A DNA stretch of 64,000 nt from an uncultured virus (IMG/VR IMGVR_UViG_3300025000_000094) (IMGVR_UViG_3300025000_000094), one strand, 5' to 3'; counted from the first letter of the stretch, positions 1 to 45,289 are shown. A program made the numbers and translations. Notes: a model not told the origin generated them from the letters alone.

Positions 1-2922
1 CTGTTTTCCCGAAAGAGCCGTAGTAACGGTAGACAAATCTACAGCAGAAGTTGGGACATGAACCACAGTCAGTGCGGTGGCCCCCGTAACATCTCCTGTG
101 TGGGTGGCATTAGTAACAAGACCACTATATTGTGTGTTGGTGGAGTTGTCCCCAGTATTTGTTCCAGATAGATTGGAGGCAGATATGGCCCCAGAGAAAA
201 CTGCCGTAGAGCCGCTTATCCCGTAGTTGGCGGTTATGGTTTTGGTGGACACATGGGAACCGAGGTTGTCACCTGCATTGATGCCAGTTAAAGCGGAGCC
301 GTCACCGTAATATTTAGTGGCAGTTACAGATGAAAGAGAAACAATGCTACCTTGTGTCCATTGGTTGCCGTAGGTTTTCAAGGAGTAGTCGTCTGGGTAA
401 ATCCCACCAGCAAGACCGTTTATCCCCATATTCCCATCATTAGCATTGATGTATATCTTGGGGGTAAAAGTTGTCCCAGTATGAGTACCAAATCTAAATT
501 GTCCACCCCCAACTACCGCAAGTTCCATATCGTAAAAAGGGGCTCTCCGTTTACGCCTAACAAAATTGTCGCCATCGTAGAATTTATAAGAGAAATCGTC
601 TGTGGCAGATGTGCTCCATAGTTTTACACTTTGTGGTCCTTGCAGAGTTTCAGCATCTGTAGTTGTGGCTCCGATAGCTACTGAGGTCATAGTTGTATAT
701 AGCACATCTCCTGCGCCAAGCACCCAACTACCAGCCGCACCAGCCGACTCCAATAATGAGCCATCATTAAACCGTATGCCAGAACCAGTGCCGTAAACAT
801 GGACCTCTGAATCCCTAACGTGAATATCACTTTGCGTCCTCAATCCATTTGCATCAAACGCAACTGAATTTCCAAGTATAACATCGCACAGCGGTCCACA
901 ACTAGAGGCATCTCCACCGCCAGTTATCCATATCGGATTTGTTGCCGTAAATGCAGTAGTTGAATCGTTGGCTATAAAAGATGAGCCAACATAAAACCTA
1001 GAGGCAGACATGCTGGAAGTGGTAGTAATATACGAGTTAGAGGTCAACCCACCCGTCATTGTATCTCCAGCTTTCAATACATAATTACTCCCTACTAAAA
1101 TAGGGAATGTTGACGGCGCTACTAAATAATCAGAAGTTTTAACCACATAGAACGTAGCTGGATTAGAAAGGTAATCAGATGTTTTTACCACATAAAATGT
1201 AGCAGGGGCCTGAAGAACCTCATCGTAATCAGGTTTAGCGTTAAGCGTGGAGCCAACCCAATCGTAAGAGGCAAACCCACCTGCGACATCGTAAGGATGC
1301 CCAGAAGCGGGCATAGTTAGGTCAGTGAGCGCATTATGAGAGGTAGCCACATACGTTCCAGATGGAAGATTTGAGATTGACCTCAAATCCTCTGTTTCAA
1401 CATATCTAGTGCCAACAGAAACAGTGTTCTGTAGGATAACACGATAAAGTATCTTCATCTCTGCAAACGGGAGTGTGCCAAGAGCAAGGGATTCATACTT
1501 ATTGTTCTCTCTGGCCTCAGCAATAGTTGTGTCTTCCCTCTGACCAATAAGTGAAACAATGGGCTGGTATGGGTCATTGGTTGCGAATATCCATACCGCA
1601 ACATATTTGTTGAGAGCGGCATCAGCCAAGGCGTTTACGTTGTTATAGCGTAGATTGGCCCCATTAACTAAATAGTAAGAAGTCTGGGCCGTGAGAAATT
1701 CAAAGTCAGCGGCCCCATTCTTGTAAAGAACCGCACAAGACGACGGAGCAACTATCGTATGCTCTATATCCTCGTCGTCAATCTTGCCACCTGTCATTGT
1801 AAAAGCGGTGTCGTCAAATACAGCAGTTAAACCTGATTCATACCTAACACCCACGCTGTGGTGAAGATACATATGGGTATCTCCGTCCATCTTCATGCCG
1901 TGGCGTTCATCACCGAGAAGACCTTTGTTAATGGTTGTGTTCCAGTATACAGAAGCTACCGTAGGAACAAAGAAGCCGGGGAATCCGTTGGTTGATAACG
2001 TCCCAGTAGCGTTATACCAAATGTAATGAAGCCCAGTGGTGTCTGCTATGGTTATGGAGGAAGTGGGTTTGGTTGTCCCAACTCCGTCTATGTAGATACC
2101 GTGGTCCCCTGTTATAGTGAATGTAAGGTTGGCATCGTTAAAAGATATGACGGCGTTTCTATCCACAAACCCTGTGGGGTCTCCCGATGTGGAATACAAT
2201 AATTTATGCGTCTGGTTATACCCAGTAGTTGAGGATATGTCGCCCCAGTATTCAGATGCTGATATTGAATCCACTAATATTGAGGATGCAGATACCAATT
2301 TTACTCCCGTAATTGAACCGGGGTTCACGAAGGCTATAGAGGAGCCACTCATGGTTAACTGGCCCGTCATTGTGTCGCCAGTTGTTTTTACATAAACCCC
2401 AGAATAGGGGTCAGTTGGTAGATTTGCAACAGGAACTTTGCCGGCGGTGTCAAGCTTTAAAAGTTTACTTGCTACGTTAAAAGTGTTCCCCTGTAAGGTT
2501 ACAGATGAAGTGTTAAGGGCCAAAGGAGAAGCGAGAGTACCATTTCCGGTAAACTGAAAGGCATTTGCCGATATTGCGGAAGAACCAACACCCGCCGACG
2601 TTTGACAACTGCCATCTGCGAAACATATTCCATATGAGCCACCAGTAGTAGAAGATAAAAATATGCTTGTGTCTACTATAGCTATTCTCTTATCATACTG
2701 ATTAACGCAAAACATTGGGCTAAATATACATTGCTGATATTCATTGGGAACCTCACCATCTGAAAGTAAATCCTTATTGTCAACCAAGTCCCTAAAGTTT
2801 TGGTTTACAGCTCCAATGTCCTGAGTTTTATCCGAAGTGGTGGTATAAAAAGGTACATCCTGCCCCATTACAGAGCAGGATAATGACGCTATAAGAAGTA
2901 TTAAGGATGTAATTTTTCCCAT
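1..2922 (-). CDS. Tail fibre / receptor-binding protein with N-terminal signal peptide (truncated by window edge)
   Basis: Absent from the ORF track because it runs off the edge. Read by hand: ATG at 2922, MGKITSLILLIASLSCSVMG-QDVPFY..., no stop in the stretches checked (1-1620 and about 2400-2922). S/T/G-rich, with YV(L/K)xxGDTMTG fibre motifs, SSVTLQGNTFN and VDLSTVTTALSGKQ. Confidence 0.8.
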   Translation of the reverse strand, partial: MGKITSLILLIASLSCSVMGQDVPFYTTTSDKTQDIGAVNQNFRDLVDNKDLLSDGEVPNEYQQCIFSPMFCVNQYDKRIAIVDTSIFLSSTTGGSYGICFADGSCQTSAGVGSSAISANAFQFTGNGTLASPLALNTSSVTLQGNTFNVASKLLKLDTAGKVPVANLPTDPYSGVYVKTTGDTMTGQLTMSGSSIAFVNPGSITGVKLVSASSILVDSISASEYWGDISSTTGYNQTHKLLYSTSGDPTGFVDRNAVISFNDANLTFTITGDHGIYIDGVGTTKPTSSITIADTTGLHYIWYNATGTLSTNGFPGFFVPTVASVYWNTTINKGLLGDERHGMKMDGDTHMYLHHSVGVRYESGLTAVFDDTAFTMTGGKIDDEDIEHTIVAPSSCAVLYKNGAADFEFLTAQTSYYLVNGANLRYNNVNALADAALNKYVAVWIFATNDPYQPIVSLIGQREDTTIAEARENNKYESLALGTLPFAEMKILYRVILQNTVSVGTRYVETEDLRSISNLPSGTYVATSHNALTDLTMPASGHPYDVAGGFASYDWVGSTLNAKPDYDEVLQAPATFYVVKTSDYLSNPATFYVVKTSDYLVAPSTFPILVGSNYVLKAGDTMTGGLTSNSYITTTSSMSASRFYVGSSFIANDSTTAFTATNPIWITGGGDASSCGPLCDVILGNSVAFDANGLRTQSDIHVRDSEVHVYGTGSGIRFNDGSLLESAGAAGSWVLGAGDVLYTTMTSVAIGATTTDAETLQGPQSVKLWSTSATDDFSYKFYDGDNFVRRKRRAPFYDMELAVVGGGQFRFGTHTGTTFTPKIYINANDGNMGINGLAGGIYPDDYSLKTYGNQWTQGSIVSLSSVTATKYYGDGSALTGINAGDNLGSHVSTKTITANYGISGSTAVFSGAISASNLSGTNTGDNSTNTQYSGLVTNATHTGDVTGATALTVVHVPTSAVDLSTVTTALSGKQ

Positions 2923-5879
2923 TGTTCTAAAACTCTATCAAGTTGCTCTTCCATCTGCCTCTCTGCAACTTCCATTTGATGTCTGCCAGCCTCAGTGTTT
3001 TCGTCTATGCCTTGGTCTCTAGCAGACTTCAATAATATATTTTTTGCGTCCTTTAGTCCAGCTTTTAAATCACTTACATCCATTTTTATTAACACGGATT
3101 CCTGAATTGGCTGAATACTAAGACCAAGAAAAACATCCAGTACAGCAAAAGGAACGCTTTTTGACGCGCCATAATATCCAGCCTTTTTAGCATTTATAGC
3201 TATAGCCAAAGATTCAGGTAGCACATTGGCAGAATACATCGCATCACCAAGTTTCTTGGCTTGATAACCAACTGAGTCTATGTTTTCTTCACCAGAAGTA
3301 CCAAAAGGTATAGGGTTAAGAGGCGGAGCGAAATCTCTCCAAATCTTAGCGCCTATTTGTAAAGGCACACTTTTGCCTTCTTTATAGACTTCTTTGCCGG
3401 AGAACATCTCCTTATTAAAGGCAATCTCCCCAGCTATTTTAACAACGCCTCCAGGCTGGATTGCAGAAGGTATATCAGATTTGCCCTGTGTTACTTCTTT
3501 TGCGTAATCATGATAATCAGCCCAAGGGATTATGCTCCTTAACGACATCCACATAGGGTCGCCATTCTCGTCTCTTTCAGGCATTAAAACTCCGATGCCC
3601 TTTTTAGACTTAATATACTTAAGGTCAGTTTCGTTCATTCCAATTGCTTGTGCAGATTGGTTATTAACTGCGTCTATAAACATGTTGTATTTATACAGTT
3701 TAAACGGATTTTTAAGTGCCGCTTCTGCAATCCTAGGAGTTGATTTCACGGCAAATGTTATAAATGGGATATTGTATACAGGGTTATCCCTAAAGAACTC
3801 CGTAGCTTTAGATACCTTATTGTAGTTAAATAGCCACTTCTCAGCCTCAGCAGCAGCCTCAAGTTGAGTTTTCCCACTCCTAACTTCGTGCATGTATTTG
3901 GCTATCTTAAATATTTCTTCCTCTGTTGCATATACATTACCGGCTGTTTCGTACATCCCTCTCCAGCCTTTAGATACTTTCTGACCAATGTTCATTCCAG
4001 AGAACTCATTGGTAGGAGGGAGGAATATATCAAGTTCTTTCTTAGAGAACCCAGAGCCTATAAGGTTATGCTGAACTGCCTCTTTGTAAATAGGCCCTTT
4101 CTTGAGAACTTGGTCAAGAGCCTCATTAAGTAACCCAGGAGTCTTATACAGAGGAACACCAGATAGGTCTAATAGTATGGAATTTGAAATTATGTTCCTA
4201 GCATGGGTAGCAGGAGAGAATAATATCTTATTAGCTTTCCATATCTTATTAGCTCTGCTTATAAACTTGTACACTCCATGTGCATTTGTTGTGTTCTGAT
4301 TGAGAGATACGATATCTTCAGCTATCTCTTTCCTAACCCACTTGCCTGATATGGCCCCAAATTTCTTGTCTTTCGGAATAGCCACCCAGTCTTCACCCAT
4401 TATGCCTTTAGGTTTAGCTACCCAATTGGGGTTCTCAGCTATTTCTCCAAAAAAGCGAAGATTCATGGCGGCTTCGCCAGTTTGCTGAACATGCTTGGTA
4501 GCAAGATACGCAGGGGTTTCTATGACTTTTCTGGCTTGTTGCTGGGCTATATCCAAGTCACCTTTCTTACGTAATGAATTTAACCAGCCAGTAGCGGGTT
4601 TCTTAAACGGCCCTTTCTTAGCAACTTCTCTACCCAAATCGGAAAGAATTTTATTCTGCTCTCTTTTCCCTAAAGCAGCAAAAGCGGTCACTTGGTCGTC
4701 TGTGTAACTGGCATGGTTCTTGAGGAAATCACCAACTTCCTCAATAGTTCCCATTGCATTTTCAAGACTCATCTTTCCAGAACGTATCTTATCCCTTAGT
4801 TGAGGGTTCTCAAATATTTCATACAACCTAGGAAGGTATTTTCCACGGTTATTCATTATTGTTTCAGCTGTCTTTTCACTTATAAACTTAGATTTTAGTC
4901 CTTCTTTTACAAATGTTTCAGACACTTCATCAACAATGCTCCTGGCCTTTTTTATATCAGAAAAGAACTTAGACGGGTCTTCTATGCCAAACTGCTTTTT
5001 AAAGTCAGTAGTCATTAAAGACATTCTCTCTATCTCATCAGCAGAGAACTTGCCTTCCATTATCTCTTTAGCAAACTTTTGAGCCTCTGGAGTAAGGCCA
5101 TCGTGTAAAAGATGTCCAGTATCGGAGCCTAAAGAAAGAAACCCCTTTACATCGCGCAGTTTCTTTTCTGCAAGTTCTATATACTCTTGCTTGTTAGGTA
5201 AACCAAATTTGTATGTAAATGGTTTCCTAATCCACTTGGGTATCTTCCCAGCCATGTAATCAATCGTAGCATCCATAGCGGGAACAAGAGTCTCTTTACC
5301 AAGTTGACTCTTCCCTACCATTGATACGCCTTTTCCGTAACCCATAGTACCTAAGCTAATAGGGTCTGCTAACATGCCTGTAAATTCAGCGGCAACTCCA
5401 GGAATCTCCCTGCCAATATTTAACACCATATTAGCAGAAACAGACTTTGTTTTAGCTTCATCCCAACCTATTTTATCTTGTACTGAGTGTACAGTATTAA
5501 CCAATTCATCGGTTATAACTTCTGAAGGTATAGAGGCATAGTCATATAAGTCTTTAAAAGGGCTCCATAATCCAGTAGGAGTCCTGCCTTGTATTTCAGA
5601 AAACTTATTTTCAGCTTCACCAAGCATCTTACGAAGTTTTCCTGTTAACGTATGGTCGTCTTCAAATTGAGCCAAAGGGTCTTGGTCAAATTGGGCAAGA
5701 GGGTCTTTATCCTCAAATTGTTCAAGAGGGTCAGACTGTTGCTCAGGTAAAGGAGAAGCAACCCCACCAGTGGGAGCCATTTGAGGAGTCTGTATTTGGG
5801 GGGGCTGTACAACTTTAGGAGTAGGAGGTTTTACAAGGTTCTCTACCTTGGCAACCTTATTTTCTTGTGATTCTGGCAT
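2901..5879 (-). CDS. Large internal virion (DNA ejection) protein, putative
   Basis: 992 aa, helical, N-terminal DPLAQF repeats, WLFNY...PFITF motif; follows the nozzle and small ejection proteins as in podoviruses. Confidence 0.6.
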   Translation of the reverse strand: MPESQENKVAKVENLVKPPTPKVVQPPQIQTPQMAPTGGVASPLPEQQSDPLEQFEDKDPLAQFDQDPLAQFEDDHTLTGKLRKMLGEAENKFSEIQGRTPTGLWSPFKDLYDYASIPSEVITDELVNTVHSVQDKIGWDEAKTKSVSANMVLNIGREIPGVAAEFTGMLADPISLGTMGYGKGVSMVGKSQLGKETLVPAMDATIDYMAGKIPKWIRKPFTYKFGLPNKQEYIELAEKKLRDVKGFLSLGSDTGHLLHDGLTPEAQKFAKEIMEGKFSADEIERMSLMTTDFKKQFGIEDPSKFFSDIKKARSIVDEVSETFVKEGLKSKFISEKTAETIMNNRGKYLPRLYEIFENPQLRDKIRSGKMSLENAMGTIEEVGDFLKNHASYTDDQVTAFAALGKREQNKILSDLGREVAKKGPFKKPATGWLNSLRKKGDLDIAQQQARKVIETPAYLATKHVQQTGEAAMNLRFFGEIAENPNWVAKPKGIMGEDWVAIPKDKKFGAISGKWVRKEIAEDIVSLNQNTTNAHGVYKFISRANKIWKANKILFSPATHARNIISNSILLDLSGVPLYKTPGLLNEALDQVLKKGPIYKEAVQHNLIGSGFSKKELDIFLPPTNEFSGMNIGQKVSKGWRGMYETAGNVYATEEEIFKIAKYMHEVRSGKTQLEAAAEAEKWLFNYNKVSKATEFFRDNPVYNIPFITFAVKSTPRIAEAALKNPFKLYKYNMFIDAVNNQSAQAIGMNETDLKYIKSKKGIGVLMPERDENGDPMWMSLRSIIPWADYHDYAKEVTQGKSDIPSAIQPGGVVKIAGEIAFNKEMFSGKEVYKEGKSVPLQIGAKIWRDFAPPLNPIPFGTSGEENIDSVGYQAKKLGDAMYSANVLPESLAIAINAKKAGYYGASKSVPFAVLDVFLGLSIQPIQESVLIKMDVSDLKAGLKDAKNILLKSARDQGIDENTEAGRHQMEVAERQMEEQLDRVLEQWEKLHP

Positions 5880-5880
5880 T

Positions 5881-6722
5881 CTACTCGCCTCTTATTTTTT
5901 TGACTTCTATTTCGGCCTGTGCATCGGTAAGTTCGGGCTTAACTTTCTTTATAGCTTTTATTGCCCTATTTATATCAGGAGTGCTTTTAATGGCATCAAA
6001 ATAGCTAACATCACTATTAGGAACCATAGTAGTTTGAAGGAGTTTAGTGAAATTAGCATCTAAATCGGCTTGTCTTTGAGGCACTTCTACTTTTGGTTTC
6101 GTTGTAGTAGCACCAAGAACCTTTTTAGACATCTCACCGGCCTTCTCTACGGCCTTCCTGGCCTCTCCTGTTGGCACAGCGGACAGCAACGCCTCTACTG
6201 ACTTTCCTTTAGCTGATAAAGCAGTTTTAATCCTATTTATTTCAGTCTCTACGCTGTTTATAGTCGGAGGAGCCTTCCTGTCTATTTTATACTCAGGAGC
6301 ATCAGGGTTCTCGTCTTTATCATATGCGTTACGAAGAGCCTCAAGACCTTTCATAAGCATTTCATCCGCAGGAAGATTGTACTTTGTCCCAGCTCCACCA
6401 CCAGAAGACTTCCTCTCTTCCTCAGGAATCCAGCGTTTAATAGCAAGACGTTTCGACTCTCCCGGTTTAAGAGTCTTTAAAACTTCAGGGTCAAGTTCAA
6501 GATAACCTTTTTCAATTAAATCAGATATTTGAGCTTCATCCGTGTCTGCGACTTTTTGTTCTCTAAGTTTTTTATCTGTTATTTCTTTATTTTTCCTATC
6601 AATATATTTACCACCAACAGAACCTAAAGTTGAAATAAGTTCTGCACCTATATTTGGCTTTTGCTGTTGAAGTTCAAGAACTTCTCTTGAGGATATCTAG
6701 CTTTAGGTATATATTCGGGCAT
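5881..6722 (-). CDS. Putative internal virion protein, apparently frameshifted near 6684
   Basis: Track ORF 5881-6360 stays open upstream to about 6696. ATG at 6722, just after the upstream stop, is in another frame and stops after 24 codons. Confidence 0.55.
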
Positions 6723-6724
6723 AA

Positions 6725-7378
6725 TTATCCTTCAGACTTTTTAGAAAATAAAGCATTACCTATCATTCCACCGACAGGCCCACCCATTATCCCACCACCA
6801 ATAGACCCAGCCGCACCTATAACAGAGGATAGTATGCTGGTTTTGCTGTTTTCTTTCATCTGTTTCTTAGCAAGAGCAAGTTGCTGTTCCATCATCTGAA
6901 TCTCTCTCTGTTGTGAAAGCTCTTGTCCTATGGCTTGAGCAAGGTTATTATACATCTGAGAATTTGACTGTATGTCCATCCCATACGCTTGCATTATATA
7001 CTGGGCCATCGTCTCTGACTGTTGCTGTGCAAGTTTACCAACAAGTTCAGCCTGTTGCTGTGTAGCGGTCTGTCTAGCTCCAGCCATACCAGCGGCCTCT
7101 ATATCAGAACCCCTCATCCCTCTAGCCCCAGCGTCACTCTGAGCCATAGCCGCCGCTTGTTCTCCACTTTGCTTAATAGCCGCAAGCTGAGGAGCAACAT
7201 TTTGAGAAGTCTGAGCAAACTGAGACTGAACGTATGGTAAAGCAGAAGTCATGCTCTGAGCTGTACTCATTTTTATTAAATCGAATATATTTTTAGAAGA
7301 AACATCAGTTTGAACATTCTGGTTCCCAGCCATTTTTACTTGAGGCAAACCGGGGACGCCTCCTGTACCTTCCGCCAT
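6725..7378 (-). CDS. Small internal virion / pilot (ejection) protein, putative
   Basis: Q/A/M-rich 217 aa with a Gly-rich C-terminal hydrophobic stretch (GAAGSIGGGIMGGPVGG); podovirus ejection-protein position. Confidence 0.6.
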   Translation of the reverse strand: MAEGTGGVPGLPQVKMAGNQNVQTDVSSKNIFDLIKMSTAQSMTSALPYVQSQFAQTSQNVAPQLAAIKQSGEQAAAMAQSDAGARGMRGSDIEAAGMAGARQTATQQQAELVGKLAQQQSETMAQYIMQAYGMDIQSNSQMYNNLAQAIGQELSQQREIQMMEQQLALAKKQMKENSKTSILSSVIGAAGSIGGGIMGGPVGGMIGNALFSKKSEG

Positions 7379-7380
7379 AG

Positions 7381-10305
7381 TTATTCCATCCTTATCGGTG
7401 AGTATATGGCCTTTATACCGTACAAATTAATAGGCCCTTGCGTACCGTCGTAAGAAATATCAAAATTTATCCAATTGAACGTCGAGGCTTGTTCGTTAAT
7501 AGCAGGGAACTTGGCTACGAAATATCCCGTCTCCACAGCCTCATTTAAATCAACACTGTTTAGTGTGTACTGCGTCGTGCTTCCGTTAATTGAATATTTT
7601 ACATTAATATCGATGTTTTGTCCAGTAACTTCTTCAGACTTTAACATTAGGTATACACGCTTAAGTTTCTTTTTTTCAACAGGATTACCGAAATCATAAT
7701 CTGAAGTCTTTATGTGGAAACTAAAGCTACTGCCATCATCATCTATGCCGATATCTTGTAGATGCATGTGCCCTGTATCACGACTGTCTCCAGTATATAA
7801 CTGGTTGTCATATATTACAGCTGAATAGGCATAAACATCGTCTATTGTGGACCAAATGTTATTCATGTCTAAAACTACGGCTTTGTCGTTTACAGACCCA
7901 GCGGCAGTATTTGTGGTATAGAACATGTAATACCTATCACGGTATACCGCAGAGGCTACCGGAGGACGCTCAGACCCTTCGTTCCACTCTACTGTAAGTC
8001 CATCAAGTCTAAGAGTATCTGTTGTTGTAACGGGAGTTTCAAAGACTCTTACGCCAAGATAATTGGAAGTTGAAGTAGCTATCGGAGCATTAGCATTTTG
8101 GGTAATCCATGTAGCAGTAGACCTAGTAACTTGGTTGCACGAGCTACCACCGTTTATGGCGTAGGATATATTTGAGCCGCCAGTTAGAATAGAATTTGGC
8201 CTAAAGTTACCCCAAGATGTTATCCCAGAGGAATTAATGCAATCACCTATATAATAGCCAGTCGTTGTTGCCTCAAGGTAAGTCATATTAACCACAGGGG
8301 TCTGGGTGCTATAAGAGGTTTCAAGACTGATTTTCTCTTGCCAGTATCTTTTTATAAGAGGCACACGAAACTCCCCACTGGTGGTTGTCGATACATTCAC
8401 CCAATCGGACCAAGTAGGAAGCGTTGTTGTTGAGGACTCCCGTACTTGGTAGGTTACAGTAGACCCAACTGGTACATATTCATCAAAGTAATATGGTCCA
8501 CCTATCGGAGTAGATAAATAAGTATCGAATACTGGAGAAACCCAATTTGAAGAATTTGAATATTCAGGGAATTTTATGTTATCAAAAGATATTGTATCAA
8601 CTCCACCACCATACCCTATTCCGACTCCAAAGTAAGGAGCAGAACTATATTCAGTATCAGTCATGCTGCATACTAGAGTATTATTTATAAAATAACTTAT
8701 AATACCACTTTTGTTAATTACTAATCTAGCATAAATTGGAGAAGAGTAACTAAGACCAGTATTTGAGCAACTTGTTTGTCCCAAAGAAGACCCATTTTTA
8801 AATTTTGATATCCCAGCAGATGTTCCTACTGAGCTAAAAGAATACGAATACCCATTTTTCAAAGAATAAATTGGTCCATATGAGTTTGATGTAATTGTGA
8901 AATCTCGTATTACTGCATTGCTTGCACTAAAAGAAACTCCTGGCGTAGTCCAAGAAATAGTGGTGTCATATACTCCATAGAATTCTCCATTATCTATATT
9001 TGCGAATATCCCTATAGAATAAGTACATTTTGCAGAGTTTGATACAATAGAGCAACCACCAAACGGAGAAATGCTTGTCTGAGTCCAAGTAGATGTTAGC
9101 ACTCCATAGCTAAAATCAGCAAATAATCTTGATGTTGTAGTTGATTTTCCAATTAATATGCTACCGTCTATTGTTGTAGAATCAATATTAATTAAAGTCC
9201 CATTATTCCAATCTGAAGCTTCTGTATTAACATGGCCCCAAGTAGAAGGAACCACCGAACCGGGGTATATAGTTGTAGAAGTAGGACCCTGATTAGGCAG
9301 CTGAGTCTGGTATAACCCAGTCTCCCATTCAGCTTGCGTGTCGTAGGTCTTGGAACGTGTGTTACCAGCAGACCGTATAACGCCATCGATAATGGTTCTG
9401 ACAGGGTCTGAGGCCCTTTCGGTCGTTGTGCCGCACCTTCGCTCAATACCGCGGTTTGAAAGCCATACAAGGCAATTATCCTTCTCTCTTACACTACGGC
9501 TGTCTTTTACGCCAATTTGGGATGAAATCTGCCTTAAAACAAAGTCTCTCCTATCGTTACCTGAAAGAGCCCAAAGTTCATCCTCTAGGCCAATGTGGTA
9601 CGCATTTTGATACTGGCCCATTAAAGCTATGACTTTTTTACCGTTTTCAAGACCAGAAATTGAAATAGAAGAAGGAGAAGTAGATACTCCAGGAATTTTA
9701 AGCGTCCAATCTGTACCATCACCCTCACCGGAAAGACGTATTCTGGAAGGTTCTCCGCTGATATCGGCAACCATTACCCTGTTTCTAAATGTGCCAATCT
9801 TGGTCCCCATAGGAATATTGGGTTGCAACGTGAAAGTACTAACTGTGGTTGAGAAAGGTACATCTATGCCATTAACACACCAAAGTTGACCAAGTGTCTG
9901 AACGCACTCATATTCAGCGGAAGCGTTAAGGTTATCTAACCCAACAATAGGATTACAGTCACCTTGGTTTTTTGTCCAAAAGAAAGACTGGCTAGAGAAT
10001 AAAACGATGTACCTTTGCCCGTCAACTGCATTATAGTTCCACATGCCCTTAATGGCTTTTTCGTCAGTGCAAGGAGTAGCGTTATACTCGCCATACCCAC
10101 GCCTACGATAGACAGAAAGGTCTTCGTCAAAATAGACGTTGTTAGCTGTTTGGAGGCACTCAGGAGGGATAGCATTAGAGGCCCAGCGGGTTACTAGTCC
10201 GCAGTTCCTAAACGGGGGGTAATTATATTCTTTTTCGTCTTGCGAAAGGTTCTGTCCAAAACAAACAGAAGGCCATAACGCAAGGGCTATTATGAGCCTT
10301 TTCAT
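7381..10305 (-). CDS. Tail nozzle / packaged-DNA stabilization protein (P22 gp10 / T7 gp12-like) with signal peptide and central insertion
   Basis: N-terminal ANNVYFDEDLSVYRRRG and C-terminal IKTSDYDFGNPVEKKKLKRVY motifs typical of podovirus nozzle proteins; MKRLIIALALWPSVCFG leader. Confidence 0.7.
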   Translation of the reverse strand: MKRLIIALALWPSVCFGQNLSQDEKEYNYPPFRNCGLVTRWASNAIPPECLQTANNVYFDEDLSVYRRRGYGEYNATPCTDEKAIKGMWNYNAVDGQRYIVLFSSQSFFWTKNQGDCNPIVGLDNLNASAEYECVQTLGQLWCVNGIDVPFSTTVSTFTLQPNIPMGTKIGTFRNRVMVADISGEPSRIRLSGEGDGTDWTLKIPGVSTSPSSISISGLENGKKVIALMGQYQNAYHIGLEDELWALSGNDRRDFVLRQISSQIGVKDSRSVREKDNCLVWLSNRGIERRCGTTTERASDPVRTIIDGVIRSAGNTRSKTYDTQAEWETGLYQTQLPNQGPTSTTIYPGSVVPSTWGHVNTEASDWNNGTLINIDSTTIDGSILIGKSTTTSRLFADFSYGVLTSTWTQTSISPFGGCSIVSNSAKCTYSIGIFANIDNGEFYGVYDTTISWTTPGVSFSASNAVIRDFTITSNSYGPIYSLKNGYSYSFSSVGTSAGISKFKNGSSLGQTSCSNTGLSYSSPIYARLVINKSGIISYFINNTLVCSMTDTEYSSAPYFGVGIGYGGGVDTISFDNIKFPEYSNSSNWVSPVFDTYLSTPIGGPYYFDEYVPVGSTVTYQVRESSTTTLPTWSDWVNVSTTTSGEFRVPLIKRYWQEKISLETSYSTQTPVVNMTYLEATTTGYYIGDCINSSGITSWGNFRPNSILTGGSNISYAINGGSSCNQVTRSTATWITQNANAPIATSTSNYLGVRVFETPVTTTDTLRLDGLTVEWNEGSERPPVASAVYRDRYYMFYTTNTAAGSVNDKAVVLDMNNIWSTIDDVYAYSAVIYDNQLYTGDSRDTGHMHLQDIGIDDDGSSFSFHIKTSDYDFGNPVEKKKLKRVYLMLKSEEVTGQNIDINVKYSINGSTTQYTLNSVDLNEAVETGYFVAKFPAINEQASTFNWINFDISYDGTQGPINLYGIKAIYSPIRME

Positions 10306-10307
10306 GG

Positions 10308-11006
10308 TTATTGTTTTCCGATTGCGCTAGGTAAATAATTTATTCGTTCAACACAACGTACTTTCATTAGGTCAGACATTACGTTGAAAGAGTCAAGGAA
10401 AACTTTTGCCTTGTCATACCTTTCATCCACTATGGATGCTTTATACGCACCGTAGTAGGTTAGTATATAATTAAAAGGCAGGAACTCAGAAATTGCATTA
10501 AACGGCACATCAGTATCATTAGTCAGTGCAGTAGACTGTGATATGTACTCAACCTTTATGGTAGCCAAATCAGAAGTAGCATTAGGGAAAGGCGCGAACC
10601 CTATCTTAGTGCGAGAAGAGAAGTTTAGGAAGTAGTACGTAGGAAGACCAGACTGATTCTCCCACTCAGCAGACCTTCCATCAAGCCCAGCCGGAGTCAT
10701 TTCTTGTATAGACAAAGCATCCCTAGTTACCCTACGGATATATATAAAATCACTAGGAAGCGAGTAATACGTTGTCCCCGATACAAGAGGGAAGACTGTA
10801 GACTTGTAGTTGCACAAAGTCTTAACATCTACAACTTTCTGCCCTTCATTTATCCACGCGTTTAATTCGCTGTCAGAGAATCTTTCTCTTGTTGAATGAG
10901 CGTCAGTGATGAGAGAACGAGCGTCTGCCCGCAACTCACTAAGAGTCGAAGCAGACGCTTGTCCAGCAAGGAGCAACAGTAAAGATACTTTAAACAGCAT
11001 TTTCAT
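10308..11006 (-). CDS. Head-tail adaptor (tail tubular protein A-like) with signal peptide
   Basis: TLSELR...FSDSELNAWINEG, YSLPSDF, GLPTYY motifs of podovirus adaptors; MKMLFKVSLLLLLAGQASA leader ending in A-S-A. Confidence 0.75.
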   Translation of the reverse strand: MKMLFKVSLLLLLAGQASASTLSELRADARSLITDAHSTRERFSDSELNAWINEGQKVVDVKTLCNYKSTVFPLVSGTTYYSLPSDFIYIRRVTRDALSIQEMTPAGLDGRSAEWENQSGLPTYYFLNFSSRTKIGFAPFPNATSDLATIKVEYISQSTALTNDTDVPFNAISEFLPFNYILTYYGAYKASIVDERYDKAKVFLDSFNVMSDLMKVRCVERINYLPSAIGKQ

Positions 11007-11008
11007 AG

Positions 11009-11437
11009 TTACTCGACAGTTGTGCTATCCTTGGAATCATAGTATTTGATTCCGTGTATAGTTTGAGCCGTTTGAGCGTCTAAAGTCCTGCAATATACCC
11101 CAGCTTCAGAATAATACTCGTACACAGACGGGCTTATTAACTTGTAGCTAGGGGCTGTCGCAGTGCAAAGATTACTATTAACTGAACCAGACGAAAGGCA
11201 GACTGTTTGCCCACCAGTAAGATTCTGAATAGTAATCCTGCGGGTCCTAAAGTCACTAGCTGATATAGCTGTCCATGTAGTAGATGAACACGAAGTAGCG
11301 AACGAAGACAGCGTATCACCATCATTTGAAGCAACTTTAGTAACCAACGGAGACTGCCTCGATGCGGCAAAAGCTATACCAACGAAGCCAAATATAGCCA
11401 CAAACAGCATTTTGGTATGTTTAGTATAGTTTTTCAT
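11009..11437 (-). CDS. Putative virion protein with signal peptide
   Basis: Basic n-region, hydrophobic core, AFA site; four Cys; RRITIQN beta-rich motif; lies between capsid and adaptor genes. Confidence 0.6.
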   Translation of the reverse strand: MKNYTKHTKMLFVAIFGFVGIAFAASRQSPLVTKVASNDGDTLSSFATSCSSTTWTAISASDFRTRRITIQNLTGGQTVCLSSGSVNSNLCTATAPSYKLISPSVYEYYSEAGVYCRTLDAQTAQTIHGIKYYDSKDSTTVE

Positions 11438-11440
11438 ATA

Positions 11441-11911
11441 TTACAGACAATGAGTCGCCGTATCTGTTATTACAGAGAAAGCACCACGACCAGTACCGGT
11501 AGATGTGCAGAAAGCAAAAGCCACACAATCCGAACACCCATACATCTGCCCTTTGGCAGTAGGGGTTATCGCATTGAGTTCAGCTATCGTTTTCTGGGCA
11601 GGGGTCATATACGCAGTAGATACCACGCCAGCACCCTGTACAATACCAGAACCAGTTACGGTTGTACCACTAACCGCGCCAGTTCCAGTTATAGTGCCAG
11701 CATAAATGGTCCTAACAGGAAGCACAGCGGTACCAATGTCGTATAGAGAAGCGGCTCCAGGAACGAAGTAGCCACTAGAATCTACACGCCAGTAAGAATA
11801 TCCACCGGAAGTGTTGAACCCAAGGGTGCTAAAATCACCCTGCTCAGCAACAACATAACCGACGAATCCTATAATGGCGAAAAACGCCGATATAATAAGA
11901 CTTTTTTTCAT
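11441..11911 (-). CDS. Putative head fibre / decoration protein with signal peptide
   Basis: MKKSLIISAFFAIIGFVGYVVA leader; G/T-rich shaft; C-terminal GQMYGCSDC...C...C knob; SD GGAGG upstream. Confidence 0.55.
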   Translation of the reverse strand: MKKSLIISAFFAIIGFVGYVVAEQGDFSTLGFNTSGGYSYWRVDSSGYFVPGAASLYDIGTAVLPVRTIYAGTITGTGAVSGTTVTGSGIVQGAGVVSTAYMTPAQKTIAELNAITPTAKGQMYGCSDCVAFAFCTSTGTGRGAFSVITDTATHCL

Positions 11912-11925: not shown

Positions 11926-12465
11926 TTATTTCCGAAACTTATCTAGGCTATTTATAAACTGGTCGTCAGGCTCAAGCATGAGACCGATGCGCTTCCACTC
12001 AGATATGTAAGGCTCGTAACGAGGCCGTTCAAGAGCTTTCTTGTACGCAGGAGCCCAATCGGGGCTGTCCCTACGTATGACACCAAGGTCCTGCCAGCTC
12101 TCTATACACTCCCGAAACTTGTCTTCAAGTTCCTTCCGACGAGCATACAGCTGGTCACGCTTCCTAGGGTCAGTAACACGCTGATTTTTATGCTGTTCAA
12201 GTTGACGATTAAGCATATGAATCTTGCGATTTATAGCGTCCTTGTCAACACAGATATCATCTATTTGGGCGGTAGCAGAATACCCAGTATCCTTTACATC
12301 ACCAGCCCCAGCCATGTCCTTAAGGGTTTCCAAATCTCCCTTAAGCGCCTCAGCTTCCTGAGCAGTTATCATCGGGTTAGTTCTAGATGTATCATCCGTT
12401 TTACGTTTCATTAGTTGAGTCCTCCGACTAGTATTATAACCCCCTGCCCCCATTTCTGAGGGCAA
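11926..12465 (-). CDS. Hypothetical protein
   Basis: 179-aa ORF co-oriented in the late operon directly after the capsid gene. Confidence 0.6.
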   Translation of the reverse strand: MPSEMGAGGYNTSRRTQLMKRKTDDTSRTNPMITAQEAEALKGDLETLKDMAGAGDVKDTGYSATAQIDDICVDKDAINRKIHMLNRQLEQHKNQRVTDPRKRDQLYARRKELEDKFRECIESWQDLGVIRRDSPDWAPAYKKALERPRYEPYISEWKRIGLMLEPDDQFINSLDKFRK

Positions 12466-12478: not shown

Positions 12479-13363
12479 TTAGGCCTGATGCCCGTATATC
12501 CAGCGCCACTCAACGGTTGACACCTCAAAAGACGCGTAACCAGCCATCTTAAGAACCATAGTGTCAAACTCGCCAGTGCGGAAGAACTGGACCGGCTCCC
12601 ACTCGCGCCATATGAGCTTCTGCTTCATCATCTTCGAGTTCATCATGAACCAGTTGGACGAAGAGGTCAGGAAGTTGTCCCATATAATGCACTTGTAGCG
12701 ACCTTCAAGATAGTTCCGGTTGTTGATATTGTAATCAACCTTACCAACAGAGCGGAGTATCTCAAACGCCTTTTCAGCGTGGTCCATAGGAATCAGCAGC
12801 GTGTCCGGAGCATTGTACATGATATTGTCACGGTTGGTCTTCAGTTTCTTGAAGGCCAGTTCCGTAGCAAACACGTTAGCCGCAGAGAACGCCAGAGAAC
12901 CCGCATTAGACTGATTCGCACCGCCAACCTTGGACGTATGCGCCGCGTTACAGAGGCTCAGACCATCACCAGTGGTGAAAGTACCGAACGCATTGTTAAA
13001 CGGATACGCACCGCGGCTTTCGCGCAGAGCACGGAAAGAATCCGCCAGAGAAGCGGTCTTATCCTGAATCACACCATACAGGTCGTTACGAAGCAGACGG
13101 CGGGTAATCTTAATACCGTAAGCGTACTCACGCTCAGACACCGACTTCTTGTAACCTTCCTGGATGTCGTCATAGGAAATCTCCCCGTTAAATTCGGGGA
13201 CGACACCACTATCACCAGTCTCCAGGTCATACTCTACAGCCTGTTCCGCATCTTTAAAGCGGTACAGGAGAGGAATCATCGAGGGGTAATCCCTATATTG
13301 GTCAAGAAAGACGCAAGAGAGGTCTTTCTGAACTATCGAGGGCCATTTGCCAGCAGTAAGCAT
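12479..13363 (-). CDS. Major capsid protein
   Basis: 294 aa; EYAYGIKITRRLLRNDLYG, TGDGLSLCNAAH, PDTLLIP and SNWFM motifs of a Mu gpT-like/podovirus capsid family; SD AAGGAG. Confidence 0.85.
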   Translation of the reverse strand: MLTAGKWPSIVQKDLSCVFLDQYRDYPSMIPLLYRFKDAEQAVEYDLETGDSGVVPEFNGEISYDDIQEGYKKSVSEREYAYGIKITRRLLRNDLYGVIQDKTASLADSFRALRESRGAYPFNNAFGTFTTGDGLSLCNAAHTSKVGGANQSNAGSLAFSAANVFATELAFKKLKTNRDNIMYNAPDTLLIPMDHAEKAFEILRSVGKVDYNINNRNYLEGRYKCIIWDNFLTSSSNWFMMNSKMMKQKLIWREWEPVQFFRTGEFDTMVLKMAGYASFEVSTVEWRWIYGHQA

Positions 13364-20167: not shown

Positions 20168-21790
20168 TCACGTAATTTTCCTCACACCGTATTTATCACC
20201 TTGAAAATTAGGGTTAAACACCATGCTACCGTTACCACGCATGTAAATATCTTTAAACGATTTCTCGCTAGGGTCTAGGTCTTGTGTGTACTTAGAAGCA
20301 ATAAACCAAGCTATTGCAAAGCCCATCACCCTGTCACTATAACAACCCTCTTGAGGCTCCATTGACTCGCCATCGTACACGAACGACCGCATTTCATCAA
20401 TTAGTGCACTTGAACGAATCTTGATTCTGAAATCCTTGATACCCTCAGAAAGCTTATGTATCATCAGAGGCTTTGTGCGTTTGGTTGTTTCCCAGCCGTA
20501 CAGTTGGTCTTTAGACTTGTAGGAGTAGTCTGACTTCTCACGCTTCCAAAGGTTAGAATACCCAAGCCCTATAAGTTTCTGCATGGTAACAGCGCCAACA
20601 CCGGGCCAAGACTCAGGTATAAGCAGGGCATTGTTATAATACCTTCCAAGTGTGGCTAAAGTATCACCGAACTCGTCAGGGGCAATATGACCGTGGTATT
20701 CACCTACCTGTTCCATTTCGTTGATGTCTATAATCTCAGCAGTAGAGAAGCAACCGTTTTTAATACCCTCAGCCACATCAGCGCCTATTACGTAGGTATG
20801 GTTCTGTGTAGGCATTTTCCAGATACGAAGGTTGCCATTGTCCACAGGCTTAAATCTAACCTCCTCACCAGCATCGATGAGCAATCCACGCCACCCCGGT
20901 TGCTTACAGAACTTTTCATGTTCCATAAGTGATATCCAGTCAAACACCATAGCAGAGGAAGATATGAAAGCTTCTTCAGCAGTAACAGGGTATTCCTGTG
21001 GGAAGAGTTCAACCTGTGACATATCCCTACGTTTCTTCCTTCGCCAAGCTATCTGCTCCATGTCGCAGTTGAATATGTCAACAAGGTCTTTTTCTTCCTT
21101 GCTTAAATCGTTAAACCCCTGTACGCCTTTGATACGGTAGGTATCGTCCAGCACCCAAGGTATAAATATGGCTTTATAGCGGGAGTTATTTTGTACTGCT
21201 TTCTTCCAAAGCTGGTGAGCGAAGTTAATACCGTTTGCGGTAGTCTCTATCACACCCTCTGCATCGTCCATCAGGGCTTCTTCTACGGCAGTCAGGACTT
21301 CTGGGTCGTCCCAGTGGGCAAACTCCGAAAGATGGTAGTCTGTTATGTCCGAACCCCGACCGAACTTCTTGCTGCCAGCTGTCCCGATGTAGAAAGTCGA
21401 ACCCGTGTCCAGGAACTCTATCATCCCTTCCGATTCCTTTATCTTCACGTTCATCGGCCATAAACAGTTCTTAACCATTGGCATAACACGCTCACGGAAC
21501 ATCTTAACAGTAGCGTCATCGTTCTGAGTTAACATGATGGCGCGCTTGTTCTCTTGGAAGTTACACTTGTGTATAAACCGTGCTATGTTAAAGGTAGACA
21601 TTCCTCCCTTGCGTGACTTTATGATGTAGTCAAACTTGGAGTGGTTCTCCCAGTAATACTTCTGAATTTTGTTTAGTTTAAACCTGACAAGCTTATTGGT
21701 AGACTTGTCTATAATTTGGTAAGCTTTCTCAGCAAAAAAGATTAAATCTTCCTTGCACCTTCGCAGGATTTCTTCTTTGGTGATTTCCAT
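20168..21790 (-). CDS. terL: Terminase large subunit
   Basis: IIKSRKGGMST Walker A, HLSEFAHW Walker B, IETTANG, IGADVAEG nuclease motif, DRVMGFAI. Confidence 0.92.
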   Translation of the reverse strand: MEITKEEILRRCKEDLIFFAEKAYQIIDKSTNKLVRFKLNKIQKYYWENHSKFDYIIKSRKGGMSTFNIARFIHKCNFQENKRAIMLTQNDDATVKMFRERVMPMVKNCLWPMNVKIKESEGMIEFLDTGSTFYIGTAGSKKFGRGSDITDYHLSEFAHWDDPEVLTAVEEALMDDAEGVIETTANGINFAHQLWKKAVQNNSRYKAIFIPWVLDDTYRIKGVQGFNDLSKEEKDLVDIFNCDMEQIAWRRKKRRDMSQVELFPQEYPVTAEEAFISSSAMVFDWISLMEHEKFCKQPGWRGLLIDAGEEVRFKPVDNGNLRIWKMPTQNHTYVIGADVAEGIKNGCFSTAEIIDINEMEQVGEYHGHIAPDEFGDTLATLGRYYNNALLIPESWPGVGAVTMQKLIGLGYSNLWKREKSDYSYKSKDQLYGWETTKRTKPLMIHKLSEGIKDFRIKIRSSALIDEMRSFVYDGESMEPQEGCYSDRVMGFAIAWFIASKYTQDLDPSEKSFKDIYMRGNGSMVFNPNFQGDKYGVRKIT

Positions 21791-45288: not shown

Positions 45289-45289
45289 A

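What the first reader, a model, noticed from the sequence alone, without database searches (positions are those of the whole stretch)
1..11911. Podovirus tail and head-accessory proteins carry Sec-type signal peptides
Seen: five late-operon proteins begin with a basic n-region, a hydrophobic core and a small-residue cleavage site. They are the tail fibre (MGKITSLILLIASLSCSVMG|QD), nozzle (MKRLIIALALWPSVCFG|QN), adaptor (MKMLFKVSLLLLLAGQASA|STLSELR), 11009-11437 (...MLFVAIFGFVGIAFA|AS) and 11441-11911 (MKKSLIISAFFAIIGFVGYVVA|EQ). All contain multiple Cys. Portal, scaffold, capsid, terminase and the ejection proteins lack such leaders. In the adaptor, the predicted cut exposes the xTLSELR start at which ordinary adaptors begin. 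Established: in model phages (T7, P22) these parts assemble in the cytoplasm. Inference: external virion parts are exported, folded and possibly disulfide-bonded outside the cytoplasm, and join filled heads at or after inner-membrane permeabilisation. That would be a compartmentalised assembly route.
Basis: partly seen in the sequence, partly recalled or inferred. Interest (0 to 1): 0.85.

Follow-up and report, generated by a model that had tools for sequence, protein, structure and literature searches.

The report
Phage tail proteins carrying secretion signals
In this uncultured short-tailed phage and dozens of relatives, every tail and neck protein from the head-docking adaptor outward starts with an ordinary bacterial export signal while the head proteins do not. 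This suggests, without proving, that the tail is made outside the cytoplasm and meets the DNA-filled head only late.

Summary
Five late genes begin with a basic start, a hydrophobic core and a small-residue cut site: fibre 1-2922, nozzle 7381-10305, adaptor 10308-11006, and the 142-aa and 156-aa proteins. Seventeen other late proteins lack such a leader.

The leaders are translated and under selection:
- Genes are packed 2-14 nt apart.
- 36 of 37 adaptor homologues with an N-terminus carry diverged leaders.
- All 38 nozzle homologues carry a hydrophobic leader.
- At the boundary with the conserved adaptor domain, position -1 is A, S or G in 37 of 38 sequences.
- Leaderless relatives, and solved adaptors, start exactly at that boundary.

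Identities check out. The adaptor matches PF24175. The nozzle model matches Pa223, T7, SU10 and P22 nozzles.

Cysteines in the leader-bearing proteins appear and vanish in pairs. Those in head proteins vary singly.

Best reading (0.6): Sec export, cleavage and disulfide folding outside the cytoplasm, with head-tail joining after the membrane is breached. The joining step is inference. The host is unknown. Five literature searches found no such route for tailed phages. This scan noted the same pattern in eight other windows.

The parts
1..2922 (-). Tail fibre, running off the left edge of the window. Its leader is the first 20 codons (2863-2922) and the predicted cut leaves Gln at +1.
   Evidence: Homologues in L007, L009 and L015 all carry different leaders before a shared INQNFR-type mature start.
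2901..5879 (-). 992-aa internal/ejection-type protein with no leader and no Cys.
   Evidence: The L015 homologue also has no leader. No family hit, so the role is inferred from position.
5881..6360 (-). 159-aa ORF with no leader. The frame stays open upstream to about 6700 without ATG, GTG or TTG.
6725..7378 (-). 217-aa protein with a Gly-rich hydrophobic C-terminal segment and no leader. Probably an ejection protein.
   Evidence: Four homologues lack leaders.
7381..10305 (-). Nozzle (tail hub), 974 aa. The leader is codons 1-17 (10255-10305). The mature start is Gln-18, and the mature part has 14 Cys.
   Evidence: AF2 model with pLDDT 80.5. Top Foldseek matches are the Pa223, VP1, LME-1, A4, Carin-1, T7, crAss001, SU10, P22 and GP4 tail hubs, E 1.7e-18 to 3e-9. 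All 38 homologues carry leaders. The match to the leaderless L005 nozzle starts at mature residue 7.
10308..11006 (-). Head-to-tail adaptor, 232 aa. The leader is codons 1-19 (10950-11006). It carries the Cys pair C65/C218.
   Evidence: PF24175 SU10_adaptor, E 6.2e-23, residues 21-207 against profile positions 2-174. PDB adaptors 8jov_2, 9gb5_I and 7wmp_m align from their residues 3-10. Boundary statistics. Cys pair.
11009..11437 (-). 142-aa protein: a leader (codons 1-24, 11366-11437), a roughly 16-residue flexible linker, then an eight-strand beta-sandwich with 4 Cys.
   Evidence: Model pLDDT 71.6. Only weak fold matches: Ena spore-appendage subunits at E 1.3e-3, cupins and jelly-roll coats. 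Seven of seven locus homologues have leaders. Cys are lost in pairs.
11441..11911 (-). 156-aa protein: a leader (codons 1-22, 11846-11911), a fibre-type repeat, then a C-terminal 4-Cys knob.
   Evidence: Strong SD box before the leader ATG. The repeat recurs up to 11 times in long proteins and the knob ends many proteins. 73 of 82 short family members pass my signal rule.
11926..12465 (-). Roughly 160-aa helical protein between the capsid gene and the leader-bearing genes, with no leader. Role unknown.
   Evidence: 5 homologues, none with a leader. No family or Atlas lead.
12479..13363 (-). Major capsid protein, no leader.
   Evidence: PF25209, E 2.5e-7. PHROG major head hits. Six homologues without a leader and with a conserved N-terminus.
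16239..18248 (-). Portal protein, no leader.
   Evidence: PF23899 SU10_portal, E 1.7e-11..
20168..21790 (-). Large terminase, no leader.
   Evidence: phrog_2, E 3e-20..
44353..45559 (-). Lysis region. It holds a two-TM small protein (44353-44682), an M15 peptidase endolysin without any signal (44833-45288), and a TM-plus-coiled-coil 89-aa protein (45290-45559).
   Evidence: PF08291, E 9.3e-11. phrog_894 endolysin. Sequences. No lipoprotein spanin found.
46100..48286 (-). 728-aa fibre of the neighbouring 60% GC siphovirus-type module. It also starts with a 17-residue Sec-type leader (48236-48286).
   Evidence: Gly_rich_2 domain. Shares fibre motifs with the podovirus fibre at protein level only.

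Best explanation
The five leaders are working type I Sec signal peptides.

Proposed route:
1. The fibre, nozzle, adaptor and two small tail/neck proteins are threaded through the host Sec channel.
2. Signal peptidase I cuts them at the conserved small-residue site. This creates the same N-termini that leaderless relatives have by default.
3. They fold, and form disulfide bonds, outside the reducing cytoplasm.
4. Heads are built and filled with DNA in the cytoplasm from leaderless portal, scaffold, capsid, terminase and ejection proteins.
5. The two halves can meet only when the inner membrane is breached, most simply by the phage's own holin at the end of infection. The exported tail then docks on the portal.

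Shown here: the leaders exist, are translated, are conserved as a feature across the clade, obey the cut-site rule at the homologous boundary, and mark exactly the tail side of the virion.

Inferred: export, cleavage, disulfide formation in the periplasm, and late joining.
For: 1. Canonical anatomy on 5 of 22 late proteins. No mature part has a second hydrophobic segment (highest 19-residue Kyte-Doolittle mean 1.31), so nothing would stop transfer.

2. The starts are fixed by 2-14 nt gene spacing and an SD box.

3. The feature is conserved while the sequence is not. Leaders are present in 36 of 37 adaptor homologues with an N-terminus, at 35-100% identity. A hydrophobic leader is present in 38 of 38 nozzle homologues, at 21-100% identity. 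In eight distinct related loci, every fibre (3), nozzle (7), adaptor (7), 142-aa (7) and 156-aa (7) homologue has one. No capsid, portal, scaffold, terminase or ejection homologue does.

4. At the alignment column where the conserved adaptor domain begins, position -1 is A 31, S 5, G 1 and Q 1. Position -3 is A, C, V, S, G, L or I in 37 of 38.

5. Leaderless relatives start at that very column: P0040 and L005, Pfam profile position 2, and residues 3-10 of solved adaptors. The leaderless L005 nozzle aligns from its residue 8 to mature residue 7 here.

6. Gln directly follows the cut in about 30 of 38 nozzles by eye, and in 22 of 38 by a strict mechanical rule. A conserved residue at +1 makes sense only if a new N-terminus is made there.

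7. Cysteines come and go in pairs:
- Adaptor C65/C218: both present in 32, neither in 7, one alone in 0.
- 142-aa protein: outer pair present in 3, absent in 5, inner pair always present.
- 156-aa protein: second pair present in 5, absent in 3, with a new pair in L009.
- Nozzle: a block of six Cys is present in 7 and wholly absent in L009, and two further pairs are gained or lost together.
- Mature Cys counts are even in 8 of 8, 8 of 8 and 4 of 6 full-length sequences.
- In the controls, capsid, portal and the 275-aa protein vary singly, with even counts in 4 of 7, 3 of 5 and 3 of 6.

8. The endolysin has no signal, so the phage should rely on a holin that opens the inner membrane.

9. In phage SU10 the fibre N-termini bind the adaptor (PMC9509320, passages read). 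A retained hydrophobic leader would therefore be in the way.
Against: - No dedicated predictor (SignalP, DeepTMHMM) could be run. My strict rule missed 8 of 38 nozzle and 2 of 36 leader-bearing adaptor homologues. Most misses have no Lys or Arg before the hydrophobic core as the genes were called.
- Nothing shows export or cleavage.
- The host is unknown. There are no prophage relatives in 185,579 species genomes, and no lipoprotein spanin that would show an outer membrane.
- From general knowledge (recalled, not from a call): in P22 and T7, heads without adaptor and tail proteins lose their DNA. A tail-less filled head would therefore need another way to stay closed. Joining in the seconds around lysis, or after dilution, should also be inefficient.
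- The phage encodes no Dsb-like or signal-peptidase-like helper.
- Paired cysteines could also oxidise after release.
- The homologues are related to one another, so counts of sequences overstate the number of independent events.
Confidence: 0.6

Rival explanations
1. The leaders are only membrane-targeting tethers. They bring tail proteins to the inner membrane, where they stay as signal-anchors or only partly inserted. The tail is built at the membrane and picked up by heads without full export.
For: This avoids the problem of heads and tails sitting in different compartments. Some homologues, as called, lack a basic start (8 of 38 nozzles fail the strict rule). The 156-aa homologue in L009 has a long core and an unclear cut site.
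Against: A basic start before the core predicts N-in, C-out topology, which puts the body of the protein outside. The small-residue cut site is kept at the homologous boundary in 37 of 38 adaptors. Gln is kept at +1 in most nozzles. The cores are short (leaders of 17-24 residues) and strongly hydrophobic, unlike Gly/Ala-rich release-type anchors. A retained leader would sit where leaderless relatives begin.
Confidence: 0.15
2. The exported protein pool has a second job outside the virion, such as masking receptors from within or blocking superinfection. Virions are built from a minor pool that escapes export.
For: Fibres and nozzles touch the cell envelope, so exported copies could bind envelope parts. 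The neighbouring phage has a leader only on its fibre.
Against: The adaptor has no business at the envelope, yet it carries a leader in 36 of 37 homologues. There is one gene copy per protein here. No inner start codon follows the leaders, apart from Met-19 of the fibre, which relatives lack. A pool that escaped export would keep a hydrophobic leader at assembly interfaces.
Confidence: 0.08
3. Host-specific cell architecture makes the place of head assembly reachable by exported proteins. The signals then mean something different in this unknown host.
For: The host is unknown. The clade spans low-GC and high-GC members and has no cultured relative.
Against: DNA packaging needs cytoplasmic DNA and ATP. 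The M15 endolysin points to an ordinary peptidoglycan wall. Nothing in the genome hints at a special compartment.
Confidence: 0.05
4. Artefact: mis-called starts or chance hydrophobic N-termini.
For: My lenient scan also flags wrong-frame ORFs (16 of 167 ORFs of at least 60 aa in all six frames). Gene callers chose Met-3 for the adaptor and Met-10 for the 142-aa protein.
Against: Gene packing and the SD box fix the starts. Even the shorter calls still contain the core and the cut site. Conservation across dozens of diverged homologues, and strict restriction to tail-side proteins, rule out chance.
Confidence: 0.02

Closest known systems
Tail of Escherichia phage SU10 (Kuravirus) and T7-type podoviruses: portal, adaptor dodecamer, nozzle hexamer and fibres docking on the adaptor
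   Same: Same parts and same gene logic. The adaptor is a PF24175 member, the portal matches SU10_portal, and the nozzle model matches SU10, T7, P22 and Pa223 hubs. In SU10 the fibre N-termini bind the adaptor (PMC9509320, passages read).
   Different: The SU10 paper never mentions a signal peptide (0 occurrences). Solved adaptors and the Pfam profile begin where the leaders here end. Here every tail-side protein has a Sec leader and paired cysteines.
Filamentous phages (Ff/M13): coat proteins pIII and pVIII made with Sec leaders and assembled at the membrane
   Same: Virion proteins made as pre-proteins with cleavable signal sequences and assembled outside the cytoplasm (abstracts of PMC8310372 and PMC4823517 in the listings; otherwise general knowledge).
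   Different: Ff phages have no head, no packaging motor and no lysis, and their DNA is extruded through the envelope. Here a cytoplasmic DNA-filled icosahedral head must meet exported parts.
Exported phage lysis proteins: T4 antiholin RI with a cleavable signal peptide, and SAR endolysins
   Same: Tailed-phage proteins that use the host Sec system (PMC8385771, abstract seen in the listing).
   Different: Those are regulators or enzymes of lysis, not virion parts. SAR domains are weakly hydrophobic and uncut (recalled). The leaders here are strongly hydrophobic and followed by a cut site.
Separate head and tail assembly lines of long-tailed phages (lambda, T4), joined at the end
   Same: Complete tails and filled heads are made independently and join spontaneously (general knowledge, recalled).
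   Different: In those phages both lines run in the cytoplasm. Here the two lines would be separated by the inner membrane.

Membership tests
Type I (signal peptidase I) Sec signal peptide | Short basic n-region | tested here: met
   All five start with Lys or Arg within the first 3-9 residues. The strict rule passes 34 of 36 leader-bearing adaptor homologues and 30 of 38 nozzle homologues. Seven of the eight nozzle misses lack K/R as called.
Type I (signal peptidase I) Sec signal peptide | Hydrophobic h-region of about 7-15 residues | tested here: met
   The best 8-residue Kyte-Doolittle means are 2.8-3.2 in all five. All 38 nozzle homologues have an uncharged run of at least 9 residues.
Type I (signal peptidase I) Sec signal peptide | Small neutral residues at -3 and -1 before the mature part | tested here: met
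   The sites here are VMG, CFG, ASA, AFA and VVA. At the homologous adaptor boundary -1 is A, S or G in 37 of 38, and -3 is small or aliphatic in 37 of 38.
Type I (signal peptidase I) Sec signal peptide | Not a lipoprotein signal (no lipobox Cys at +1) and not a Tat signal (no twin-arginine motif) | tested here: met
   The +1 residues are Q, Q, S, A and E. None of the five n-regions contains RR.
Type I (signal peptidase I) Sec signal peptide | Call by a trained predictor (SignalP 6, DeepTMHMM) | not testable with these tools
   No such tool was on hand.
Type I (signal peptidase I) Sec signal peptide | Export and cleavage shown in cells | not testable with these tools
   This needs fusions or N-terminal proteomics.
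SU10-type head-to-tail adaptor (PF24175) | Profile match above the curated cut-off over most of the domain | tested here: met
   82.7 bits against a cut-off of 27, E 6.2e-23, profile positions 2-174 of 194. All 40 homologues carry PF24175 in the precomputed column.
Podovirus nozzle / tail hub (T7 gp12, SU10 gp17, P22 gp10 type) | Beta-propeller-centred fold like solved nozzles, encoded directly after the adaptor gene | tested here: met
   Ten of the top ten Foldseek matches are phage tail hubs, with E 1.7e-18 to 6e-11. Whole-chain TM scores are low (0.18-0.47) because the protein has several domains. The gene lies 2 nt after the adaptor gene. Sequence searches alone found nothing.
SAR (signal-anchor-release) domain | Weakly hydrophobic, Gly/Ala/Ser-rich N-terminal helix without a cut site (definition recalled) | tested here: not met
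   The cores are rich in Leu, Ile and Phe and are followed by conserved cut sites.

The most novel reading that the evidence does not exclude
A large clade of uncultured short-tailed phages runs a two-compartment assembly line. The complete tail (adaptor, nozzle, fibres and small accessory parts) is exported by Sec, trimmed by signal peptidase and stapled by disulfides in the periplasm. It docks on cytoplasmic DNA-filled heads only through the lesions made by the holin. The filled heads would therefore have to hold their DNA without an adaptor until that moment.
Probability: 0.45. Interest if true: 0.9.

Novelty: new variant of a known kind. Interest (0 to 1): 0.78.

Why it matters
Textbook tailed-phage assembly takes place entirely in the cytoplasm. 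If the tail of these phages is exported, several consequences follow.
- Virion assembly would be split across the inner membrane.
- Head-tail joining would be tied to lysis timing.
- Filled heads would have to keep their DNA without an adaptor.
- Tail proteins could use the host's disulfide machinery for stability.

It also has practical weight. Recombinant tail fibres or nozzles of such phages may need periplasmic expression to fold. Annotation pipelines that treat signal peptides as evidence against a virion role would mislabel them.

The question is directly testable once one member is cultured.

Tried and rejected
- **Whole genome of the window:** none is held.
- **Cultured relatives:** the terminase reaches only 32% identity (Roseobacter phage CRP-7). 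The adaptor finds nothing in 50,697 phage records.
- **Prophage relatives, to name a host:** the first alignment was too diverse for the tool. A narrower one found none in the species genomes.
- **Host lead from the phage's SpoVG gene:** one short, uninformative match.
- **Records behind L011 and L015:** not held, so I could not test whether the 45.6-kb GC junction is real.
- **Spanin search, as a sign of an outer membrane:** no convincing lipoprotein ORF.
- **Phage-encoded Dsb, signal peptidase or Sec helper:** none.
- **Nozzle by sequence:** nothing in PDB or PHROGs. Only the fold search identified it.
- **142-aa protein:** only weak fold matches.
- **Leaderless protein 11926-12465, as a possible portal plug:** no family, feature or structure lead.
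- **My stricter signal rule:** it places cut sites badly, so I did not use its +1 and parity tallies. I used alignment-anchored boundaries instead.
- **A Bacteroidota host, suggested by Gln at +1:** rejected as unsupported. Only the abstract of PMC10653852 was seen, only 2 of the 5 proteins here have Gln at +1, and several genes have strong Shine-Dalgarno boxes.
- **Literature:** five full-text searches gave no paper describing Sec leaders on tail proteins of tailed phages. PMC5723332 only counts signal peptides in two Bacteroides phages (passages).
- **Not used:** Complex prediction, sequencing-run tools and RNA tools.
Full report
**What is in the window**

Positions 1 to about 45,600 (about 41% GC) are a short-tailed phage.
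- The late operon lies on the minus strand from 21,790 down to 1.
- Early genes lie on the plus strand (25-42 kb).
- Two tRNA genes lie at 42,674-42,924.
- A lysis region lies at 44.3-45.6 kb.

Family scans identify:
- large terminase: phrog_2, E 3e-20
- portal: PF23899 SU10_portal, E 1.7e-11
- major capsid protein: PF25209, E 2.5e-7
- adaptor: PF24175 SU10_adaptor, E 6.2e-23

The fibre, nozzle, the 142-aa protein and the 156-aa protein have no family hit. From 46.1 kb onward the window holds a different, 60% GC, HK97-type long-tailed phage module.

**Check of the observation**

Each has Lys or Arg near the start, a strongly hydrophobic core and a small-residue site. The best 8-residue hydropathy means are 2.8-3.2. 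The sites are VMG, CFG, ASA, AFA and VVA.

None has Cys at +1, so these are not lipoprotein signals. None has a twin arginine, so these are not Tat signals.

Of 22 late proteins, my rule-based scan flags these five and one weak case, the 275-aa protein. That protein's relatives show no leader-like conservation. The scan is lenient: it also flags wrong-frame ORFs (16 of 167 six-frame ORFs). It therefore cannot carry the argument alone, and no trained predictor was available.

The starts are secure. The four upstream genes end 2, 2, 3 and 14 nt before the leader ATGs. The fibre ATG overlaps the upstream gene by 22 nt. The 156-aa gene has GGGAGG in front of its ATG.

**Conservation**

This is the main evidence.

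A search with the adaptor returned 40 proteins. Three are N-terminally truncated. Of the 37 with an N-terminus, 36 (35-100% identity) begin with a leader whose sequence is almost unalignable between members. It is followed by a conserved xLxxxR-type start. The one leaderless hit, P0040 (29% identity), begins with Met at that very start.

I anchored the cut on the alignment rather than on a predictor. Among 38 leader-bearing adaptors (36 proteins plus two paralogues from locus L009):
- Position -1 is A 31, S 5, G 1 and Q 1. The Q case is P0022, which is one residue out of register.
- Position -3 is A, C, V, S, G, L or I in 37 of 38.
- Leaderless P0040 and L005 place their initiator Met in the +1 column.

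The Pfam profile starts at residue 21 of the window protein. A profile of the clade aligns to solved adaptors (8jov_2 at E 1e-4, with 9gb5_I and 7wmp_m weaker) from their residues 3-10.

The nozzle search returned 38 proteins at 21-100% identity. All 38 start with a hydrophobic leader. My strict rule passes 30. Seven of the eight misses have the core and the small-residue site but no Lys or Arg before it as the genes were called. One has a Lys in the c-region.

Eight distinct related loci from viral and metagenome collections (L003, L004, L006, L007, L009, L012, L015, L016) show the same split:
- Leaders on every fibre (3), nozzle (7, one read), adaptor (7), 142-aa (7) and 156-aa (7) homologue.
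- No leader on any capsid, 275-aa, 153-aa, scaffold, portal, terminase, 217-aa or 992-aa homologue, nor on any homologue of 11926-12465.

Two rows were left out. The L007 adaptor was not recovered as an intact ATG ORF. L016 holds only the adaptor's C-terminal end.

A more distant relative, L005 (adaptor 30% identical), has no leader on any tail protein. Its nozzle aligns from residue 8 to residue 24 of the window nozzle, which is mature residue 7 (hhalign E 5.4e-5, probability 67%).

**Identity of the parts**

- **Adaptor:** a clear family member.
- **Nozzle:** modelled from the 38-sequence alignment (pLDDT 80.5, pTM 0.63). Its ten best Foldseek matches are all phage tail hubs: Pa223, VP1, LME-1, cyanophage A4, Carin-1, T7, crAss001 (two entries), SU10 and Pan3. 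P22 gp10 and GP4 follow. Whole-chain TM scores are low (0.18-0.47), as expected for a multi-domain protein with two poorly modelled inserts.
- **156-aa protein:** has two modules. One is a repeat that recurs up to 11 times in proteins of up to 2,955 residues. The other is a Cys-bearing C-terminal domain that ends many proteins of all sizes. Of the 82 family members of 270 residues or fewer, 73 pass my signal rule. It looks like a short fibre with a knob.
- **142-aa protein:** models as a leader helix, a flexible linker and an eight-strand sandwich (pLDDT 71.6). Only weak matches appear (Ena spore-appendage subunits at E 1.3e-3, cupins, jelly-roll coats). Its place in the virion is unknown, so the label 'head-accessory' is not supported.

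**Cysteines**

Mature Cys counts are 14 (nozzle), 2 (adaptor), 4 and 4. The fibre is incomplete, with 7. No mature part has a membrane-like segment.

Across relatives the cysteines come and go in pairs.
- **Adaptor:** the two Cys are both present in 32 sequences, both absent in 7, and never alone in the leader clade. Leaderless P0040 has only one.
- **142-aa protein:** the outer pair is present in 3 and absent in 5, and the inner pair is invariant.
- **156-aa protein:** the second pair is present in 5 and absent in 3, and L009 has a new pair elsewhere.
- **Nozzle:** a block of six Cys is present in seven sequences and wholly replaced in L009. Columns 237+276 and 288+301 are each gained or lost together.

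In the controls, Cys in the capsid, portal, 275-aa protein and 11926-12465 protein vary one at a time, with mixed parity. The 153-aa protein has an invariant CxxC...CxxC pattern, typical of zinc binding.

This pattern fits disulfide bonds. Before lysis, disulfides can form only outside the reducing cytoplasm. It does not prove where they form, and the sequences are related, so the independent events are fewer than the counts.

**A residue at +1**

Gln follows the predicted cut in about 30 of 38 nozzles by eye, and in 22 of 38 by a strict mechanical rule. It also follows the cut in the fibre here and in L015. Selection on the first mature residue is hard to explain unless a new N-terminus is made there. 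N-terminal Gln can cyclise to pyroglutamate. A 'Q-rule' is described for exported Bacteroidetes proteins (PMC10653852, abstract only). I do not infer a Bacteroidota host, because only two of the five proteins follow the rule and the phage uses strong Shine-Dalgarno boxes.

**How it most likely works**

The simplest reading takes the signals at face value. The tail-side proteins are exported by Sec, cut by signal peptidase I and folded with disulfides outside the cytoplasm. Heads are filled in the cytoplasm.

The endolysin (PF08291, E 9.3e-11) has no signal. It is flanked by small membrane proteins, so a holin that opens the inner membrane is expected. That event is the obvious moment for heads and tails to meet.

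In SU10 the fibre N-termini bind the adaptor and the adaptor embraces the portal (PMC9509320, passages). Trimmed N-termini would therefore matter.

Open problems, from general knowledge rather than any call:
- How a filled head keeps its DNA before an adaptor binds.
- How efficient joining can be around lysis.

The leaderless protein 11926-12465, which sits between the capsid gene and the exported set, could be looked at as a plug. I found no evidence for that.

**Rivals**

A tether-only role, a second non-virion job for the exported pool, unusual host architecture, and artefact are weighed in the Rival explanations section. The conserved cut site at the homologous boundary counts against the first two. 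The M15 endolysin and an ordinary gene set count against the third. Searches count against the last.

**Novelty**

Five full-text searches found Sec leaders on filamentous-phage coat proteins and on lysis regulators. None found them on tail proteins of tailed phages. The SU10 paper has no occurrence of 'signal peptide'. The library lacks most subscription journals, so this is absence in what was searched, not proof.

This scan has noted the same pattern on other DNA in eight earlier windows. None is look-alike sequence to this adaptor. Those notes are unchecked and were not used as evidence.

**Verdict**

The export reading is well supported by sequence logic but untested. The late-joining model is inference.

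Noticed in passing
window 45,560-46,110 and 46,100-64,000: GC jumps from about 0.43 to 0.60 within 100 nt near 45,600. Beyond it lies a complete, different HK97-type siphovirus module: small and large terminase, portal, S78 protease, capsid, connector, tail completion, tape measure and fibres. A 183-aa ORF bridges the junction and overlaps the next gene's start by one base. A 57,530-bp metagenome contig with the identical adaptor would end at about window 45.8 kb. The podovirus genome therefore probably ends there and extends about 11.7 kb left of the window. Whether the junction is a natural neighbourhood or an assembly chimera is unresolved.
   Followed up: partly
window 46,100-48,286 (-): The 728-aa fibre of the second phage also starts with a 17-residue Sec-type leader, and its other tail proteins do not. 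It shares two short fibre motifs with the podovirus fibre at protein level but has no DNA similarity. It ends in a Gly_rich_2 domain.
   Followed up: partly
window 57,484-58,128 (-): A 214-aa protein inside the second phage's head/connector gene block carries a type IV pilin N-terminal methylation motif (PF07963, E 3e-6). This looks like a pilin-like pre-protein among virion genes.
   Followed up: no
window 5,881-6,700 (-): The frame of the 159-aa ORF stays open, with protein-like sequence, for about 113 codons upstream and contains no ATG, GTG or TTG. The real gene is probably about 270 aa with an unusual start codon. Relatives have a 324-aa gene at this place (L007).
   Followed up: partly
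window 7,381-10,305 (-) and homologues P0041-P0078: Gln is the first mature residue in most nozzle homologues, although the surrounding residues vary. This may be a pyroglutamate cap.
   Followed up: partly
L009 9,273-10,693: One distant relative has two adaptor paralogues in tandem (240 and 233 aa). Both have leaders and both have the Cys pair.
   Followed up: no
window 14,276-14,737 (-): A 153-aa protein between the scaffold and the 275-aa protein has an invariant CxxC...CxxC pattern in all six relatives. It is probably a zinc ribbon in the head module.
   Followed up: no
window 19,186-19,509 (-) and 21,796-22,113 (-): The phage encodes a Cpn10/GroES-like protein (PF00166, E 1.8e-5) next to the portal region. 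It also encodes a SpoVG homologue (PF04026, E 2.8e-26) beside the terminase.
   Followed up: no
window 11,441-11,911 (-) family, P0079-P0228: The 156-aa protein belongs to a large family of small exported proteins. Its N-terminal repeat also builds giant fibre-like proteins, and its Cys knob caps many unrelated-length proteins. No Pfam or PHROG family covers it.
   Followed up: partly
window 34,245-34,418 (+): An alternative-frame ORF inside the 33,971-34,471 gene reads as a run of PLGT-type four-residue repeats, which reflects a 12-nt tandem repeat in the DNA.
   Followed up: no
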